From a virus (lineage: Duplodnaviria; Heunggongvirae; Uroviricota; Caudoviricetes): DNA of 11,850 nucleotides. Positions 1 through 3,548 of the stretch are shown here, in pieces. Numbering within the stretch: position 1 is the stretch's first letter; each line of letters begins with the position of its first letter. The stretch is from positions 1-11,850 of the IMG/VR virus record IMGVR_UViG_3300029190_000061, one strand, 5' to 3'. Position numbers and translations under genes: made by a program. A model generated the notes under the pieces. It ran no database searches. It had not been told where the DNA came from and worked only from the letters and a program-made list of their open reading frames with translations.

Positions 1-899
1 CCATAGAGACCTGTTTCGTCGCCAGAGCCGTTAGTGTTGCCAGTGCCAATGAAGGCAAAGCGTTTATGCGGGGTGATGCGGCGCCAGTCCGCAGTTGCCT
101 CTTTGATGATCAGCGGCTCTCCTTCAAGAACTGGCTGATACACACCCAGAATCTGCGGGAACGCGAAGTCATATTCATCAGCGAGGTAAACCCAACCATT
201 TTTCATCGCCAGCGCTAGTAAACCCGGTTCGAAATAGGTGGAACCATCGCGAGCGAGGATCTGGCCTGTAACGTGCGCTTCCTCCATAGACGCTGTATGC
301 TGGGCGCGGATCAGTGGTCGATTTAGCAGGGCACATAGCTGCGTAGGAAGAGAAGATTTACCGGTTCCTGCATGGCCCCAGAGATAACCCGGGATTCCGA
401 TTTCCAGCATCATGAAGATGTCTTTAATCAGGTCGAAGTCGCCATACACATAGTTCTTCTTCGCTTCCGGTACGAACTCCGGATAGGGCGTGTTGACGTT
501 GACTGTCACCTGTAGTGGCTTTCCGCGTGGCGTTCCCAGCTCTTTGATCGTTACGCCAAGCAGCTCGTGCGCGGCCACCAGTTCGGTCTTGTATTCGACC
601 GTTCCTGCGTAGCCCGGATGTGCGCTAATCTCCGCTACCTTTCCTTCGCATGAATTTTTTTCGGCACGCTTCTCATTGAGTTTGGCCAGTGCCGTGCGAG
701 AGATCGTTGGTTCATCTGGAAACGCAGAGGTGTACATCTTCACCACTTCGTCCACGTCCAGACCCTTCGCAGACTCAGGAATATTCTCGCAACGGCCCAT
801 AGAGATATGGGATTTCAGGTAATGAAAGGATTTGCCACACCACTTGCAGACGATGGCTTCCGGCAAATGTTCTTCTTGCTGTAGTGCAGTAGCGGTCAT
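1..899 (-). CDS. CobS-like AAA+ ATPase, partial (C-terminus lies beyond the window start)
   Basis: Hand translation from ATG at 899..897 is open to position 1 with no stop. SD-like AAGGA sits 8 nt upstream. Walker A GHAGTGKSS, Walker B-like VYLADEYD, and a C-terminal IGTGNTNGSGDETGLY segment resembling the CobS-family signature. N-terminal Cys/His cluster CKWCGKSFHYLKSHISMGRC. Not in the supplied ORF track because it is truncated by the window edge. Confidence 0.75.
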   Translation of the reverse strand, partial: MTATALQQEEHLPEAIVCKWCGKSFHYLKSHISMGRCENIPESAKGLDVDEVVKMYTSAFPDEPTISRTALAKLNEKRAEKNSCEGKVAEISAHPGYAGTVEYKTELVAAHELLGVTIKELGTPRGKPLQVTVNVNTPYPEFVPEAKKNYVYGDFDLIKDIFMMLEIGIPGYLWGHAGTGKSSLPTQLCALLNRPLIRAQHTASMEEAHVTGQILARDGSTYFEPGLLALAMKNGWVYLADEYDFAFPQILGVYQPVLEGEPLIIKEATADWRRITPHKRFAFIGTGNTNGSGDETGLY

Positions 900-960
900 G
901 TTTTTTCCTTACTGTTTGTCGTTTGTGGGGTATATCTTATAGAAATATATTAGGCTGTAT

Positions 961-978
961 AGTAAGTAGTTACTTATT
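961..978. promoter_or_regulatory. Near-palindromic motif AGTAAGTA-GT-TACTTATT (site A), in the gap between the CobT-like stop and the CobS-like start
   Basis: Direct sequence reading. Same 8-2-8 architecture as the sites at 7608..7625 and 11219..11236. Confidence 0.45.
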
Positions 979-994
979 TTTAAGGGTAAAGCTA

Positions 995-3223
995 TTACCC
1001 AAGAATGATACGAGATAACTCAGTGACGACTGACGGCCCTAACTCTTCAACACTGTTAACCAGTGCGTAATTTTTGTAGTAACGCCGTGGTTCGTCGGTC
1101 AGAATGCCGATAGCCATCAGTTCGATGTCGCTCAAGGTCTCAATTTCTTTGGTGACGGTTCGTAAATGCTGATGGAATCCACTACCTGTAGCACATGGCT
1201 CCCCATCACTCATAACCAGCATGATCTTTTTGTCCTCCATTCGCACTGCAAACAGGGTAGCCAGTTGCGCGACACTCTCACCATCGACGTTATTGAGCAG
1301 GGGGAACGTCTCACATACGCATCCCATGCGAGCACGGATCTCTGGAGAGTTTGCTTTCTCATTCCAGTTTTTGATAATGGGCAGCATGAGCGCCTCGAAG
1401 CGTGTAAACCCGCGCTTCGACCTGGTTTCATAATCTGGGCTACCGAACGTGGTAAAGCCGGTGATGATGTTGGGGACATTGATACGATCTAAAGCATCCG
1501 CAATGGTATAGGCACTGGCTAGGGCCAGTTGAATCTTCACGCCATCCATTGAGCCGGACAAGTCGATGACCTGCTGGACACACGCGTTCACCGCTCTATG
1601 GTCTTCCTTCTTGCGGAACACTCGGTCGTCGTTCATTGCCAGACGATACAGGCTTGCGCCATGTATCCGCCCACGCCTCTGACCAGGTATAAACTGAACT
1701 CGGTTGCGGCTGGCGATGGCCCGCTCCAGGTCTTTGGCCAGCGTCGAAGAAACGCCTGCAGACAGATGTTTTTCGATTTTCAGTTCAAAGAGTTTTCTGC
1801 CTTCTGGCACCATACGGTAGCGGTCGACTGGTGAGTGCATTGGTATTGCACCGAACGTCTTTCTGGTGCGCTTCACATGCTCTTCGGCTCCATCAATCAA
1901 CCCGATAAAGTCGTATGATCGATCGTATGGCCGATAATCAGAAGGTGAGACGCTCATAAGCTCTTTGCTGATGGTGGCCGACAGTGCGTCTTCGGTCATT
2001 TCACCGATTCCGTCTTCCATCTCGTCGAGCGCCTTTAGCGCCTCCTCCAGAGTCATTTCATCCGGCGCAGGAACAAAGCCAGACTCACTGTCTTTGGGCA
2101 CTTCCGCACCATCTTTATTTTTTTTGCCTTCGACGTCTTCTTCAGTTTCCCCACGATCAGTATCGGAGTCCTCACCGTCATCACCATCAGTGTCAGAGTC
2201 ACTTGATTTCATGCCGATAGCATCGGATTCTGGGGTGTCTCCTGACTCTTCGTGGCCTGCTTCTGTATATTTACTTTCTGTATCACTAATATCTTTAACG
2301 TGTGTAGGTAAGTCCTTATCTAACGAATCAGGCAAATCGGAATCCCCAGAATCTTCCTCTTCTGATGCATCATCTTCTCGTTCTTCCTTGTCATCGCCTT
2401 CGCCTTTGGCAGGCTTAGATGCAGAGTCACCATGAGACGGCTCGTCACCTGATTCTGGCGTTTCCTCGGACTCGTCTTTGCTCTCCGACGGCTTTCTGGC
2501 AGATGATTTAAGTTCTGGTAATTTGCCCTCTGGCTTGTCTTTCATATCCTGCATGATTTGGGCTATAGCAGCAGCGACCTTCACGCAATCCTCAGTGTTC
2601 GACATATTGCGAACGGCCACGTCTATACCATGCTCCTTTAGTAAGGCTACCGGCCTCTCGATAAGGCGCCAGTGTTCTTCCATAAAATCGATGAAGGGGC
2701 TTTGTCCATCCCAGGCGCGGACGACCGGGCAAAGGAAGAATTTCAAAAACAATTCACGCTGGTCTCCGTGACAGGCTAAAACCGCTTCTGGTACTTTATT
2801 CCTGAAGTATTTGTCGATAACCAGACTCTGTGTTGCAAGTAAATTACGCCGGGTTCCGTTAAAGACCTGCCCCATTCTGCGTTCAATAAAAACGTCTTCC
2901 AGCGCATTCCAAAGCCCCGTAGACGGAGCCTTTCCTCTTTCGCGCATCTGCATTGCGACTTTCGGTTCAGTAAAGAGAATATGGGCCACCTCATGGTCGA
3001 GAAAACCACGCACTGCGTTCATGAGGGTTGGCGACGCGTCGTCCGGTATAGATGGGATGTTTACCAGCACTGGTTCGCCGCGCCGGTTATAGCGGACATA
3101 TGCTTCATTGCCTCGTTCTGCAACAGGTATCTGTTTACCTGAAAGCATCGCTACAACTCGTTTTACACAGTCGCGAAAATCCTGCACCTCTTTCAGTACA
3201 GCTTTGGTGGTTTTTTTGGACAT
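995..3223 (-). CDS. CobT-like protein with C-terminal VWA domain and a long acidic low-complexity linker
   Basis: Track ORF 995..3292. I prefer the ATG at 3223, which has AAGGA 7 nt upstream; the 3292 ATG lies inside a hairpin loop and has no SD. VWA MIDAS-like DLSGSMDG and downstream MSDGEP. About 180 aa of D/E/S/K-rich linker (roughly nt 2005..2545). HEVAH (HExxH) near the N-terminus. Confidence 0.75.
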   Translation of the reverse strand: MSKKTTKAVLKEVQDFRDCVKRVVAMLSGKQIPVAERGNEAYVRYNRRGEPVLVNIPSIPDDASPTLMNAVRGFLDHEVAHILFTEPKVAMQMRERGKAPSTGLWNALEDVFIERRMGQVFNGTRRNLLATQSLVIDKYFRNKVPEAVLACHGDQRELFLKFFLCPVVRAWDGQSPFIDFMEEHWRLIERPVALLKEHGIDVAVRNMSNTEDCVKVAAAIAQIMQDMKDKPEGKLPELKSSARKPSESKDESEETPESGDEPSHGDSASKPAKGEGDDKEEREDDASEEEDSGDSDLPDSLDKDLPTHVKDISDTESKYTEAGHEESGDTPESDAIGMKSSDSDTDGDDGEDSDTDRGETEEDVEGKKNKDGAEVPKDSESGFVPAPDEMTLEEALKALDEMEDGIGEMTEDALSATISKELMSVSPSDYRPYDRSYDFIGLIDGAEEHVKRTRKTFGAIPMHSPVDRYRMVPEGRKLFELKIEKHLSAGVSSTLAKDLERAIASRNRVQFIPGQRRGRIHGASLYRLAMNDDRVFRKKEDHRAVNACVQQVIDLSGSMDGVKIQLALASAYTIADALDRINVPNIITGFTTFGSPDYETRSKRGFTRFEALMLPIIKNWNEKANSPEIRARMGCVCETFPLLNNVDGESVAQLATLFAVRMEDKKIMLVMSDGEPCATGSGFHQHLRTVTKEIETLSDIELMAIGILTDEPRRYYKNYALVNSVEELGPSVVTELSRIILG

Positions 3224-3276
3224 TAGAATTTCCTTGTTGTTAAAACAATTTGTTTTCTGATGTGCGTAATTTATCA

Positions 3277-3309
3277 CTGTACGAACAGGCATCTAATCTG
3301 TTCGTACAG
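3277..3309. repeat. Perfect 12-bp inverted repeat CTGTACGAACAG / CTGTTCGTACAG with a 9-nt spacer
   Basis: Arms at 3277..3288 and 3298..3309 are exact reverse complements. Lies between the 70-aa ORF stop and the CobT-like start. No flanking U-tract, so not a canonical intrinsic terminator. Confidence 0.45.
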
Positions 3310-3335
3310 GCGCTAGAGAGGATGGGAGGGGTGTG

Positions 3336-3548
3336 TTAAATAGTGCGGACGGCTACTGAACCGCAGCCGGTATTGATGAGAGTGAAGCACTTGCCCTTTA
3401 GCTCAAAGATGTATGCGGTTGCGTCTTTCATGTCAAGTAACAAAGACTTTGTTGGCAGTTCAGTGAGTATGGCTGCTGCCCCATCATCGTCAATTGAAAC
3501 CGTATGTCCGACCTCAAGGGCGATCAAATTAGAAGTTATTTTTTTCAT
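3336..3548 (-). CDS. Hypothetical small protein (70 aa), first gene of the presumed CobT/CobS-like operon
   Basis: Track ORF with ATG at 3548 and a weak GGA SD-like sequence. Sits directly downstream of the AT-rich divergent promoter region. No recognisable motif. Confidence 0.45.
   Translation of the reverse strand: MKKITSNLIALEVGHTVSIDDDGAAAILTELPTKSLLLDMKDATAYIFELKGKCFTLINTGCGSVAVRTI

What the first reader, a model, noticed from the sequence alone, without database searches (positions are those of the whole stretch)
1..3548. CobS-like ATPase and CobT-like VWA pair with non-canonical additions, in a three-gene operon outside any cobalamin context
The AAA+ ATPase carries an N-terminal Cys/His cluster (C-x2-C-x4-H-x5-H-x5-C). 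The VWA protein has an HExxH motif (HEVAH) near its N-terminus and a roughly 180-aa strongly acidic, probably disordered linker. No other cobalamin pathway gene is present, and the pair sits in a mobile element next to a recombinase. AAA+/VWA pairs outside chelatase pathways commonly act as remodelling or conflict modules, so this may be an uncharacterised phage-associated system rather than a cobaltochelatase. The upstream 70-aa ORF could be a third component.
Basis: partly seen in the sequence, partly recalled or inferred. Interest (0 to 1): 0.6.

Follow-up and report, generated by a model that had tools for sequence, protein, structure and literature searches.

The report
Phage CobST-like motor with intact peptidase
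This is the copy, on an SSU5-type phage-plasmid of E. coli, of a gene pair that many phages carry and that is routinely labelled "vitamin B12 / porphyrin biosynthesis"; it looks instead like an ATP-driven protein-remodelling motor with a probably active zinc peptidase, encoded among the phage DNA-replication genes.

Summary
On the minus strand lie a 70-aa ORF (3548-3336), a CobT-like protein (3223-995, 742 aa) and a CobS-like AAA+ ATPase (899-1, cut by the window edge after 299 of 411 aa). The window is an SSU5-like phage-plasmid of E. coli.

- **Not genuine chelatase subunits.** Both score far below NCBI's CobS/CobT equivalog cut-offs. The 115-kb replicon has no CobN or other cobalamin gene.
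- **HExxH.** It sits in an M48-like zincin domain. H77/E78/H81/E109/E114 are kept in 129 of 131 distant relatives. Genuine Brucella CobT has S-M-x-x-R at that position.
- **Cys/His cluster.** It is a Ros/MucR-type zinc finger, not a zinc ribbon.
- **Acidic linker.** It is canonical for CobT, only longer here.
- **Family.** It is virus-wide (494 phage records) and was already described as an AAA+/vWA pair with a metallopeptidase.
- **Context.** In every lineage examined the pair lies among replication genes: DnaE in 21 of 24 genome loci, clamp and clamp loader in cyanophage P-HM2, primase and helicase in ICP2.

Best reading: a CobST-type motor-adaptor that remodels or cleaves a replication-linked client, not a cobalt chelatase and not a defence system. 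It is an ordinary member of a known but functionally untested family. Interest is moderate.

The parts
1..899 (-). CobS-like AAA+ ATPase, 5' part only (residues 1-299 of 411; the rest lies beyond the window's left edge)
   Evidence: Translation. Pfam AAA_5 3e-15. PHROG 249 2.5e-108 for the full-length copy L001:11662-12897. PDB CobS 9ujv 1.5e-25 over residues 142-411. TIGR01650 scores 85.5 bits against a cut-off of 558.55.
666..860 (-). N-terminal Ros/MucR-type zinc-finger domain of the ATPase (residues about 14-78). Candidate ligands are C18, C21, H31 and C37, in the cluster CKWCGKSFHYLKSHISMGRC at nt 789-848.
   Evidence: C18/C21/H26/H31 are invariant in alignment A3. The pattern is present in 95/112 homologues. 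Pfam ROS_MUCR is hit by 32/56 homologues, best E 1.3e-6. A profile search of the PDB gives Ros87 (2jsp) as best hit, E 2.6e-4. The window sequence on its own is weak (E 0.11).
354..377 (-). Walker A motif GHAGTGKS of the ATPase (residues 175-182)
   Evidence: G175, G178, G180 and K181 are invariant in alignment A2.
168..188 (-). Walker B motif YLADEYD of the ATPase (residues 238-244)
   Evidence: D241, E242, Y243 and D244 are invariant in A2.
995..3223 (-). CobT-like adaptor protein, 742 aa: zincin N-domain, acidic linker, shaft, VWA/MIDAS domain
   Evidence: Pfam CobT_C 3e-107 and CobT 1.7e-35. PHROG 1576, E 0. PDB CobT 9uka 7.8e-18 over the shaft and VWA region. TIGR01651 scores 75.6 bits against a cut-off of 759.05. 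The start at 3223 rests on the RBS and homologue N-termini.
2540..3223 (-). N-terminal M48-like zincin domain (residues 1-228) with HEVAH (77-81, nt 2981-2995) and NALEDVFIE (106-114, nt 2882-2908)
1934..2539 (-). Acidic, low-complexity, probably disordered linker (residues 229-430; 34% D/E)
   Evidence: Composition. Relatives have 30-46% D/E in the same region. Genuine CobT has an acidic disordered linker of about 90 residues (bioRxiv 10.64898/2026.07.21.739949; sequence).
998..1786 (-). Shaft segment plus VWA domain with complete MIDAS (D554, S556, S558 at nt 1550-1564; N645; D673)
   Evidence: Residue-by-residue alignment to Brucella CobT 355-616. It covers the shaft region Q373-R413 and the MIDAS residues D422/S424/S426/N518/D546 (coordinates; MIDAS residues named in the bioRxiv paper).
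3336..3548 (-). 70-aa ORF directly upstream. It is positionally conserved, and its membership in the module is unproven.
   Evidence: PHROG 2627, E 9e-32, unknown function. A 54-94 aa ORF precedes the CobT-like gene in all lineages looked at, but no sequence homology across lineages was detected.
3277..3309 (.). Perfect 12-nt inverted repeat (CTGTACGAACAG / CTGTTCGTACAG, 9-nt loop) between the small ORF and the CobT-like gene. It may be a regulatory hairpin or an operator.
   Evidence: The RNA fold z-score is -3.9. It is identical in 29 related loci. No T-run follows it.

Best explanation
This is the SSU5-type phage-plasmid version of a virus-wide two-protein machine that shares ancestry and architecture with the CobS-CobT motor of aerobic cobalt chelatase. 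It is not a chelatase.

**The two proteins**
- The CobS-like protein is a MoxR/CbbQ/NorQ-class AAA+ ATPase with intact Walker motifs. In this lineage it carries an extra N-terminal Ros/MucR-type zinc finger.
- The CobT-like protein is the adaptor. It has an M48-like zincin domain with an intact HExxH...E zinc site, a roughly 200-aa acidic disordered tether, a 'shaft' segment, and a VWA domain with a complete MIDAS.

**Proposed mechanism**
1. As solved for genuine CobST, the ATPase hexamer grips the adaptor's shaft in its pore (inferred by homology).
2. ATP hydrolysis moves the adaptor, which holds a client protein through its MIDAS and N-domain (inferred by homology).
3. The client here is not CobN. 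It is a protein of the early, DNA-replication phase of the phage, from either the phage or the host replisome or a DNA-bound obstacle (inferred from gene order).
4. The zincin domain, degenerate in genuine CobT, probably cleaves the client or processes the complex (inferred from conservation).
5. The zinc finger may tether the motor to DNA or to a partner (speculative).
For: **Identity and element**
- 99% identical to E. coli plasmids of about 100-115 kb, and 91.7% identical to Salmonella phage SSU5.
- PHROG 249 and PHROG 1576.

**Not a chelatase**
- Equivalog scores are 85.5 against 558.55 and 75.6 against 759.05.
- No CobN, no other cob gene and no B12-dependent enzyme anywhere on the 115-kb replicon.
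- From established knowledge, E. coli makes no corrin ring, and Salmonella and Klebsiella use the CbiK (anaerobic) route without CobN.

**Architecture shared with CobST**
- PDB CobS 1.5e-25 and PDB CobT 7.8e-18. The shaft and all five MIDAS residues align.
- Solved mechanism in bioRxiv 10.64898/2026.07.21.739949.

**Intact zincin**
- H77, E78, H81, E109, D110 and E114 are invariant in 61 diverse sequences. HExxH is in 129/131 representatives, and also in cyanophage P-HM2 (HEVGH...NVTEDIRIE) and ICP2 (HECYH).
- hhalign puts genuine CobT's 'DSMALR' opposite 'DHEVAH'.

**Zinc finger**
-.

**Replication linkage**
- The same block (small ORF, CobT-like, CobS-like, 0-4 genes, DnaE, gp32, 5'-3' exonuclease, RecA) occurs in six relatives at 43-50% ATPase identity.
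- In lytic Pseudomonas phage nickie the order is helicase, primase, ligase, small ORF, cobT, cobS, one hypothetical gene, dnaE.
- Among 24 species-representative genome loci with enough flank, 23 have the ATPase adjacent and 21 have a DnaE homologue within about 6.6 kb.
- In T4-like cyanophage P-HM2 the pair lies between gp46/47 and the gp45 clamp and gp44/62 clamp loader.
- In podovirus ICP2 it lies just before primase and helicase.
Against: - No experiment exists, and the client is unidentified.
- Gene-order association is indirect. Early and replication regions of phages also hold host-takeover and anti-defence genes.
- The zinc site is lost in the Pseudomonas phage nickie lineage (GFLDSEISKVLY, NPLESFFCEKEM), yet the pair keeps its position. 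Proteolysis therefore cannot be essential to the core function everywhere.
- hhalign between the phage and genuine N-domains gives only 80% probability.
- The zinc-finger domain is roughly neutral in charge, unlike a typical DNA-binding module. It is missing from the cyanophage and ICP2 ATPases.
- Iyer et al. 2021 proposed a virion-assembly role for the same kind of pair (PMC7824862).
Confidence: 0.5

Rival explanations
1. Auxiliary metabolic gene. The pair is a functional CobS/CobT that teams up with a host CobN (or ChlH-like) subunit to boost cobalamin synthesis for the phage. This is the standard annotation and the hypothesis of PMC8651126.
For: Clear homology to CobS and CobT, including shaft and MIDAS. 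Records annotate it as cobaltochelatase or porphyrin biosynthesis. Some hosts of related phages (Rhizobium, Pseudomonas) have the aerobic pathway (host names; pathway from general knowledge).
Against: Scores are 6-10 times below the equivalog cut-offs. There is no CobN on the replicon. From established knowledge, E. coli, Salmonella, Klebsiella and Vibrio cholerae hosts have neither CobN nor its substrate. The N-domain keeps a catalytic zincin motif that genuine CobT lacks. The extra zinc finger is absent from genuine CobS (the PDB chain aligns from query residue 142). The pair is a core gene pair sitting in replication modules.
Confidence: 0.05
2. Virion-assembly chaperone with processing protease. 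The AAA+/vWA pair helps fold or assemble structural proteins and the peptidase trims them. This was proposed for group 2.2 jumbo phages by Iyer et al. 2021, by analogy with the MoxR-vWA pair of Acidianus two-tailed virus.
For: Published proposal for the same architecture (PMC7824862). MoxR-vWA pairs are generic chaperone systems. The intact peptidase motif fits processing.
Against: In all lineages examined the pair lies in the early or replication block, not the structural block. In the plasmid, structural genes are 25-50 kb away. Its neighbours are DnaE, clamp and clamp loader, or primase and helicase.
Confidence: 0.15
3. Host-takeover or counter-defence machine. It is an early-expressed, possibly DNA-tethered unfoldase-protease that removes or degrades host proteins. 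Candidates are nucleoid silencers or restriction and defence proteins, broadly like the ArdC metalloprotease or the SPRTN/Wss1-Cdc48 systems.
Against: Counter-defence genes are usually variable and lineage-specific. This pair is conserved from cyanophages to archaeal viruses (PMC8651126). The peptidase site is lost in one lineage. No direct evidence exists. This rival overlaps with the best explanation and differs only in the client.
Confidence: 0.15
4. Defence or conflict module carried by the mobile element. An AAA+/VWA system that protects the lysogen against other phages or plasmids.
For: AAA+/vWA modules occur in conflict systems (PMC7159879). The element carries other defence-type cargo elsewhere, a type III R-M system and toxin-antitoxin pairs.
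Against: No PADLOC match for any of the three proteins. The pair is present in strictly lytic phages and is core in cyanomyoviruses (PMC9983427). Its synteny with replication genes is fixed, rather than lying in variable cargo islands.
Confidence: 0.04
5. Lysogeny-switch protease. The zincin cleaves the adjacent HTH repressor, in the manner of ImmA/ImmR, IrrE/DdrO or CapP/CapH, to trigger induction.
For: A divergent HTH gene (3796-4194) lies next to the operon and gives a weak CapH hit, E 0.003. Temperate relatives show the same HTH next to the pair.
Against: The pair is equally conserved in lytic phages without such a repressor next to it. The fold is M48-like with a VWA and AAA+ partner, which the ImmA/IrrE family does not have. 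The CapH hit is marginal.
Confidence: 0.04

Closest known systems
Aerobic cobaltochelatase motor CobS-CobT (Brucella; PDB 9ujv and 9uka; bioRxiv 10.64898/2026.07.21.739949)
   Same: Same two-gene pair. The AAA+ core is shared (E 1.5e-25). The adaptor has the same order of parts: an M48-like N-domain, an acidic disordered linker, a shaft, and a VWA domain with all five MIDAS residues. The Asp before the HExxH (D76 here, D80 in CobT) is kept.
   Different: Far below equivalog thresholds. The catalytic H-E-x-x-H is intact here but is S-M-x-x-R in CobT. The linker is about twice as long. The ATPase has an extra segment of about 140 residues at the N-terminus, including a Ros/MucR zinc finger. There is no CobN partner or cobalamin context. 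The pair is embedded in a phage replication module.
Viral 'cobST' / 'porphyrin biosynthesis' / 'peptidase' pairs (PHROG 249 with PHROG 1576 and relatives). Examples: phage SSU5, cyanophage P-HM2 PHM2_135/136, Vibrio phage ICP2 ORF41/42, haloarchaeal tailed viruses.
   Same: Direct membership: 91.7% DNA identity to SSU5 and the PHROG hits. Same gene order, HExxH...E motif, MIDAS, acidic linker and position among replication genes.
   Different: The zinc finger on the ATPase is confined to the DnaE-carrying lineage of 100-120 kb siphoviruses and phage-plasmids. It is absent from P-HM2 and ICP2.
MoxR AAA+ / vWA chaperone pair with an N-terminal metallopeptidase on the vWA protein, noted in group 2.2 jumbo phages (Iyer et al. 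2021, PMC7824862)
   Same: The same architecture is described in words: an AAA+ ATPase plus a vWA protein fused to an N-terminal metallopeptidase.
   Different: Their proposed role is virion assembly, whereas the context here is replication. I did not test whether their example proteins fall in the same sequence family.
NorQ-NorD, CbbQ-CbbO and other MoxR-class ATPase / VWA-MIDAS remodellers
   Same: An AAA_5/CbbQ_C-type motor paired with a VWA-MIDAS adaptor that docks onto a client (PDB hits 5c3c, 9qh4, 9qh6 and 9qhd; CbbQ_C is hit by 50/56 homologues).
   Different: Those adaptors have no zincin domain. Their clients are metabolic enzymes (NO reductase, Rubisco).
Ros/MucR zinc-finger DNA-binding domain (Ros87, PDB 2jsp; Pfam PF05443)
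   Same: C-x2-C-x9-H-x4/5-H/C spacing, followed by the 'E-x-Y-x-x-x-[YW]-P' helix. A profile search gives Ros87 at E 2.6e-4, and 32/56 homologues hit the Pfam model.
   Different: It is fused to an AAA+ ATPase rather than to the MucR oligomerisation domain. It is roughly neutral in net charge. In the window's subclade the fourth ligand is a Cys after a short insertion. The window sequence alone is below Pfam's threshold.
DNA-linked zincin proteases working at replication or DNA entry (SPRTN/Wss1 with Cdc48/p97; plasmid ArdC). This is a functional analogy only.
   Different: No sequence-family membership. The analogy rests on my recollection of those systems and is a lead, not a test.

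Membership tests
Aerobic cobaltochelatase subunits CobS (TIGR01650) and CobT (TIGR01651) | Score at or above NCBIfam's equivalog cut-off | tested here: not met
   CobS scores 85.5 bits against 558.55. CobT scores 75.6 bits against 759.05.
Aerobic cobaltochelatase subunits CobS and CobT | A CobN catalytic subunit and other aerobic-pathway cob genes in the same genome | tested here: not met
   The whole 115-kb replicon NZ_CP101235.1 carries no CobN/ChlH-like or cob gene. 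The host chromosome could not be searched with a protein. The absence of CobN from E. coli rests on established knowledge.
Aerobic cobaltochelatase subunits CobS and CobT | CobT architecture: M48-like N-domain, acidic linker, shaft, VWA with MIDAS. CobS: AAA+ with Walker A and B. | tested here: met
   Architecture described in bioRxiv 10.64898/2026.07.21.739949.
Aerobic cobaltochelatase subunits CobS and CobT | Cobalt insertion into hydrogenobyrinic acid a,c-diamide together with CobN | not testable with these tools
   Needs an enzyme assay or complementation.
Viral CobST-like pair (PHROG 249 ATPase with PHROG 1576-type zincin-VWA protein) | Significant match of both proteins to the phage families, with the two genes adjacent | tested here: met
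   PHROG 249 at 2.5e-108 and PHROG 1576 at E 0. Adjacent in the order CobT then CobS, as in SSU5, nickie, P-HM2 and ICP2.
Viral CobST-like pair | HExxH ... N-x-x-E-D-x-x-x-E motif in the N-domain and DxSxS MIDAS in the C-domain | tested here: met
   HEVAH 77-81, NALEDVFIE 106-114 and DLSGS 554-558. These positions are invariant in A1.
MoxR/CbbQ/NorQ-class AAA+ ATPase with VWA-MIDAS adaptor | AAA_5-type ATPase domain with a CbbQ_C-like lid, paired with a VWA protein carrying a complete MIDAS | tested here: met
   AAA_5 at 2.8e-15. CbbQ_C is weak in this copy (E 0.03) but is hit by 50/56 homologues. MIDAS residues D554, S556, S558, N645 and D673 align to Brucella CobT's D422, S424, S426, N518 and D546.
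Zincin (gluzincin, M48-like) metallopeptidase | HExxH on an active-site helix that follows a beta-sheet, plus a downstream Glu on the next helix | tested here: met
   Model with pLDDT 91.4: strands 34-56, helix 65-84 carrying HEVAH, helix 100-120 carrying E109/D110/E114. Conservation.
Zincin (gluzincin, M48-like) metallopeptidase | Significant structural similarity to solved M48 peptidases | tested here: inconclusive
Zincin (gluzincin, M48-like) metallopeptidase | Zinc binding and peptide-bond hydrolysis | not testable with these tools
   Needs biochemistry. Note that the site is lost in the nickie lineage.
Ros/MucR zinc-finger domain (PF05443) | C-x2-C-x9-H-x3-5-H(C) ligand set with the flanking Ros-type helix, and a match to the family model | tested here: met
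   Spacing is C18-x2-C21-x9-H31-x5-C37. 32/56 homologues hit PF05443, best E 1.3e-6. A profile search finds Ros87 at E 2.6e-4. The window's own sequence is sub-threshold (13 bits against 25.4), so the assignment is made at family level.
Ros/MucR zinc-finger domain (PF05443) | DNA binding | not testable with these tools
   The domain's net charge is about 0. The single-sequence AlphaFold2 model is poor (pLDDT 48.7).
Known anti-phage defence systems (PADLOC-DB 2.0) | Match of any component to a defence-system model | tested here: not met
   No hit for the ATPase, the CobT-like protein or the 70-aa ORF.

The most novel reading that the evidence does not exclude
The 'cobS/cobT' genes counted for twenty years as viral vitamin-B12 auxiliary metabolic genes may instead encode a general accessory factor of phage replisomes. 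This would be an ATP-driven unfoldase with a zincin protease, DNA-tethered in this lineage. It would clear or process proteins at the replication fork or on the template, a prokaryotic-virus counterpart of SPRTN/Wss1-Cdc48. Genuine CobT would then be its catalytically dead descendant, recruited for metal insertion.
Probability: 0.2. Interest if true: 0.8.

Novelty: new variant of a known kind. Interest (0 to 1): 0.5.

Why it matters
**Annotation.** CobS-like genes occur in 494 of the 50,697 phage records searched here. They are used as a core marker of marine cyanomyoviruses. Their function is admitted to be unknown (PMC9983427), yet they are tallied as cobalamin "auxiliary metabolic genes" in virome studies. 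If the pair is a replication-linked remodeller or protease, those metabolic inferences are wrong, and a widespread, unrecognised component of phage DNA replication would come into view.

**Tractability.** The copy analysed here sits on an E. coli phage-plasmid. Its host cannot use a cobalt chelatase, so the question can be tested directly by genetics. Close relatives lie on a Yersinia pestis contig of 108 kb, which I take to be pMT1-like, and on clinical Klebsiella and Salmonella phage-plasmids.

**Evolution.** It also gives a reading of the pseudo-peptidase N-domain just seen in the CobT structure: that domain would descend from an active zincin.

Tried and rejected
- **afdb50** was not available.
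- **Second structure job.** I spent it on the ATPase N-terminus without an alignment. The model was poor (pLDDT 48.7) and I did not use it. The zinc-finger assignment rests on profile searches instead.
- **PADLOC** gave nothing for the three proteins, so I rejected the defence reading.
- **Small upstream ORFs across lineages** showed no detectable homology by alignment or PHROGs. I therefore do not claim the 70-aa ORF as a component.
- **Viral-contig scan with the ATPase alignment** returned only relatives of at least 80% identity. I took distant contexts from the look-up of encoding contigs and from annotated phage records instead.
- **Literature searches** for functional data on SSU5, pHCM2 or pMT1 cobS/cobT found none.
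- **Zinc ribbon** for the Cys/His cluster: considered and rejected.
- **LexA box** for the inverted repeat: considered and rejected. The repeat is CTGT-N4-ACAG, whereas the LexA box is CTGT-N8-ACAG.
- **Plus-strand ORFs inside 995-3292**: rejected as mechanical products of the reverse strand of the acidic linker.
- **Promoter and terminator scans** were at chance level.

Full report
**1. What is in the window**

The window matches E. coli plasmids of about 85-140 kb at 99% identity over nearly its full length. Its first 3.35 kb match Salmonella phage SSU5 at 91.7%. It is therefore an SSU5-type phage-plasmid.

The annotated relative NZ_CP101235.1 carries RepA, ParB, head and tail genes, and a replication set: DnaE, primase, a DnaB-like helicase, an ATP-dependent ligase, a 5'-3' exonuclease, ThyA and DHFR.

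All genes of the finding are on the minus strand:
- a 70-aa ORF at 3548..3336;
- a CobT-like protein. The mechanical ORF starts at 3292. An AAGGA ribosome-binding site 8 nt before the ATG at 3223, the start of the PHROG alignment and the N-termini of homologues place the true start at MSKKTT. This gives 742 aa, 3223..995;
- a CobS-like ATPase starting at 899 and running off the window after 299 of 411 residues.

**2. Checking the observation**

Three details need correction.
- The Cys/His spacing is C-x2-C-x4-H-x4-H-x5-C (CKWCGKSFHYLKSHISMGRC, residues 18-37).
- The acidic stretch is about 200 aa (residues 229-430, 69 D/E in 202).
- The ATPase is incomplete in the window.

Chance is excluded by conservation. 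An HExxH is expected 0.03 times in this protein. It is present in 129 of 131 full-length representatives from a library clustered at 50% identity. The Cys/His pattern is present in 95 of 112 ATPase homologues.

**3. Relation to genuine CobS and CobT**

Homology is unambiguous:
- Pfam CobT_C 3e-107, CobT 1.7e-35 and AAA_5 3e-15;
- PDB CobS 1.5e-25 and PDB CobT 7.8e-18.

Both proteins nevertheless fall far below NCBI's equivalog cut-offs: 85.5 against 558.55 bits, and 75.6 against 759.05 bits.

A 2026 preprint on Brucella CobSTN (bioRxiv 10.64898/2026.07.21.739949) describes genuine CobT in these terms:
- an N-domain that resembles an M48C peptidase;
- a disordered linker of about 90 residues;
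- a 'shaft' that inserts into the pore of the CobS hexamer;
- a VWA domain whose MIDAS faces CobN.

The acidic linker and the zincin-like N-domain are thus canonical CobT features, not additions. The shaft region and all five MIDAS residues align between the window protein and Brucella CobT (coordinates).

**4. What differs**

*(a) The zinc site.*
- I recovered full-length Brucella and Rhizobiales CobT sequences and compared profiles. hhalign places the phage 'RGFLDHEVAHILF' opposite the genuine 'RGLGDSMALRQAR' (probability 80%).
- Genuine CobT therefore has S-M-x-x-R where the phage family has H-E-x-x-H.
- In 61 diverse phage-type sequences H77, E78, H81, E109, D110 and E114 are invariant.
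- An AlphaFold2 model of residues 1-238 (pLDDT 91.4) has the zincin layout. A helix and a three-stranded sheet come first. Next is a helix (65-84) carrying HEVAH, then a helix (100-120) carrying the candidate third ligand E109.
- Against predicted viral structures the fold recurs in many 'VWFA/CobT' proteins of siphoviruses, podoviruses, haloarchaeal tailed viruses and actinophages.

*(b) The zinc finger.*
- The ATPase has about 140 extra N-terminal residues compared with genuine CobS.
- The consensus 'KIxCxICGxxVHxIQxHLKxxHPDxTxExYxxxYPDAPxLS' is a Ros/MucR-type finger.
- 32 of 56 homologues hit Pfam ROS_MUCR, best E 1.3e-6. The best PDB hit of the profile is Ros87, E 2.6e-4.
- It is not a zinc ribbon. 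The window's subclade uses a Cys after a short insertion as the fourth ligand.
- The domain is about neutral in charge, so DNA binding is not assured.

**5. No cobalamin context**

The whole replicon has no CobN, no cob or cbi gene and no B12-dependent reductase. From established knowledge, E. coli does not make the corrin ring. Salmonella and Klebsiella insert cobalt early with CbiK, and none of them has CobN or its substrate. The 'hijack host CobN' idea (PMC8651126) cannot apply to this element.

**6. Distribution and context**

The ATPase family is in 494 phage records. Most are cyanomyoviruses, with Vibrio, Rhizobium, Pseudomonas, Klebsiella, Escherichia and Salmonella phages as well. The closer zincin-N-domain family is in 34 records, nearly all of them 105-120 kb phages.

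- **Distant relatives.** For six relatives (43-50% ATPase identity) the called genes show the same block. The order is a small ORF, CobT-like, CobS-like, 0-4 genes, DnaE, gp32-like SSB, 5'-3' exonuclease and RecA. A divergent HTH gene often lies upstream.
- **Species-representative genomes.** A scan for GF[LIV]DHEV[AG]H gave 31 loci from Alpha-, Beta-, Gamma- and Deltaproteobacteria and a cyanobacterium. Many lie on 100-118 kb contigs, including a Yersinia pestis contig at 94% identity. Of 24 loci with enough flank, 23 have the ATPase adjacent and 21 have a DnaE homologue within about 6.6 kb.
- **Lytic Pseudomonas phage nickie.** The order is helicase, primase, ligase, small ORF, cobT, cobS, one hypothetical gene, dnaE.
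- **T4-like cyanophage P-HM2.** The 'peptidase' (HEVGH, NVTEDIRIE, DWSGS) and cobS sit between gp46/47 and the gp45 clamp and gp44/62 clamp loader.
- **Podovirus ICP2.** The pair (HECYH, DSSGS) precedes primase and helicase.

Across phages with three different kinds of replisome, the pair therefore travels with the replication genes and not with the structural genes.

**7. Explanation**

*Shown here:*
- family membership;
- the conserved motor, shaft and MIDAS architecture;
- the conserved zincin motif and zinc finger;
- the absence of a cobalamin context;
- the replication-module synteny.

*Inferred by homology:* the ATPase hexamer engages the adaptor's shaft and moves a client held by the VWA/MIDAS and N-domain.

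*Inferred from context:* the client belongs to the replication or early phase.

*Inferred from conservation:* the zincin is catalytically active.

*Counter-evidence:*
- The nickie lineage has lost the zinc ligands but keeps the pair in place.
- Structural similarity to M48 is modest.
- The finger is absent from cyanophage and ICP2 ATPases.

*Rivals:* a cobalamin AMG, a virion-assembly chaperone-protease (Iyer et al., PMC7824862), host takeover or counter-defence, a defence module (no PADLOC hit), and a repressor-cleaving switch protease (marginal CapH similarity of the neighbouring HTH).

**8. The 70-aa ORF**

It belongs to PHROG 2627, of unknown function. A 54-94 aa ORF precedes the CobT-like gene in every lineage examined. 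These ORFs range from acidic to strongly basic, and no homology among them was detected. Phage genomes are full of small ORFs, so its membership in the module is unproven.

A perfect 12-nt inverted repeat (3277-3309) lies between it and the CobT-like gene. The repeat is identical in 29 related loci.

**9. Novelty and verdict**

Viral cobST pairs have been reported for cyanophages (PMC1079782, which I listed but did not read) and for ICP2 (PMC3037004). Their spread was surveyed in PMC8651126. The AAA+/vWA-with-metallopeptidase architecture was noted in PMC7824862. The field states that the function of cyanophage cobS is unknown (PMC9983427).

The pair in this window is thus an ordinary member of a known family that has not been tested experimentally.

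This analysis adds four points:
- the contrast between an invariant catalytic motif in the viral family and its degenerate counterpart in structurally solved CobT;
- the Ros/MucR finger on the ATPase;
- the consistent replication-module linkage;
- the argument from host biology against the chelatase reading.

Relative to known systems it is a variant of the CobST/MoxR-VWA kind. Interest is moderate (0.5). It would be high if the replisome-associated protease reading proved true.

Noticed in passing
window 3277-3309: Perfect 12-nt inverted repeat CTGTACGAACAG / CTGTTCGTACAG with a 9-nt loop, between the 70-aa ORF and the CobT-like gene. No T-run follows it. As RNA it folds with z = -3.9. It is identical in 29 related loci. 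It could be an operator, an RNA processing site or an attenuator.
   Followed up: partly
window 5593-6009 and 6000-6548 (minus strand): A YafO-family toxin gene (Pfam 1.1e-19) overlaps by 10 nt an upstream 182-aa ORF with no recognisable antitoxin domain. This may be a toxin-antitoxin pair with an unusual, long antitoxin.
   Followed up: no
window 6803-6877 (minus strand): tRNA-Asn (GTT) carried by the phage-plasmid, found by ARAGORN and Rfam.
   Followed up: yes
window 3796-4194 (plus strand): A 132-aa HTH regulator is divergent from the small-ORF/CobT/CobS operon, and its 3' end overlaps the end of the integrase gene. It hits PHROG 8 (transcriptional regulator) and, marginally, PADLOC CapH (E 0.003). 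It is probably the immunity or early-operon regulator. Similar divergent HTH genes occur in distant temperate relatives.
   Followed up: partly
window 10831-10869, inside ORF 10362-11174 (minus strand): An 18-bp tandem duplication (2.2 copies, 95% match) gives the peptide repeat YTNQTV-YTNQTV in a 270-aa hypothetical protein. That protein has a sub-threshold DddA-like deaminase hit (E 0.008).
   Followed up: no
window 11343-11645 and beyond 11702: A remnant of IS3-family transposase orfA. Similarity to most related plasmids ends at about 11702, so this marks the border of a variable cargo region (fimbrial genes follow in NZ_CP101235.1).
   Followed up: no
L094 (Pseudomonas phage nickie) 8974-11058; also representative P0238: In this lytic lineage the CobT-like protein has lost the zinc ligands (GFLDSEISKVLY; NPLESFFCEKEM) yet keeps its place before cobS and dnaE. 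This is a natural 'dead-peptidase' variant, useful for comparison.
   Followed up: partly
L096 (Yersinia pestis NCTC5923, 108-kb contig), about 6001-9696: A Y. pestis contig of 108 kb, which from its size I take to be pMT1-like (not checked), carries the same pair, followed by dnaE. The N-domain is 94% identical and the ATPase 98% identical.
   Followed up: partly
Annotations seen (Escherichia phage Cyrano OV696614.1; Cyanophage S-SSM6b HQ316603.1): Name-confusion errors. The CobT-like gene is annotated 'dimethylbenzimidazole phosphoribosyltransferase' and a CobS-like gene 'cobalamin synthase'. These are the unrelated Salmonella-nomenclature CobT and CobS enzymes.
   Followed up: no
L124-L126 (Desulfosarcina, Planctomycetaceae and Oligoflexales genomes): In these distant loci the ATPase lies upstream of the zincin-VWA gene, the reverse of the usual order. 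In Vibrio sp. D404a (L115) no ATPase or DnaE was found next to the zincin-VWA gene.
   Followed up: no
L002, L004, L087 (genes between the CobS-like gene and DnaE): A Sigma70_r2-like protein of about 220 aa is inserted between the ATPase and DnaE in several distant relatives. DnaE there is fused to a uracil-DNA glycosylase domain, and in L087 it is split by an HNH homing endonuclease.
   Followed up: no
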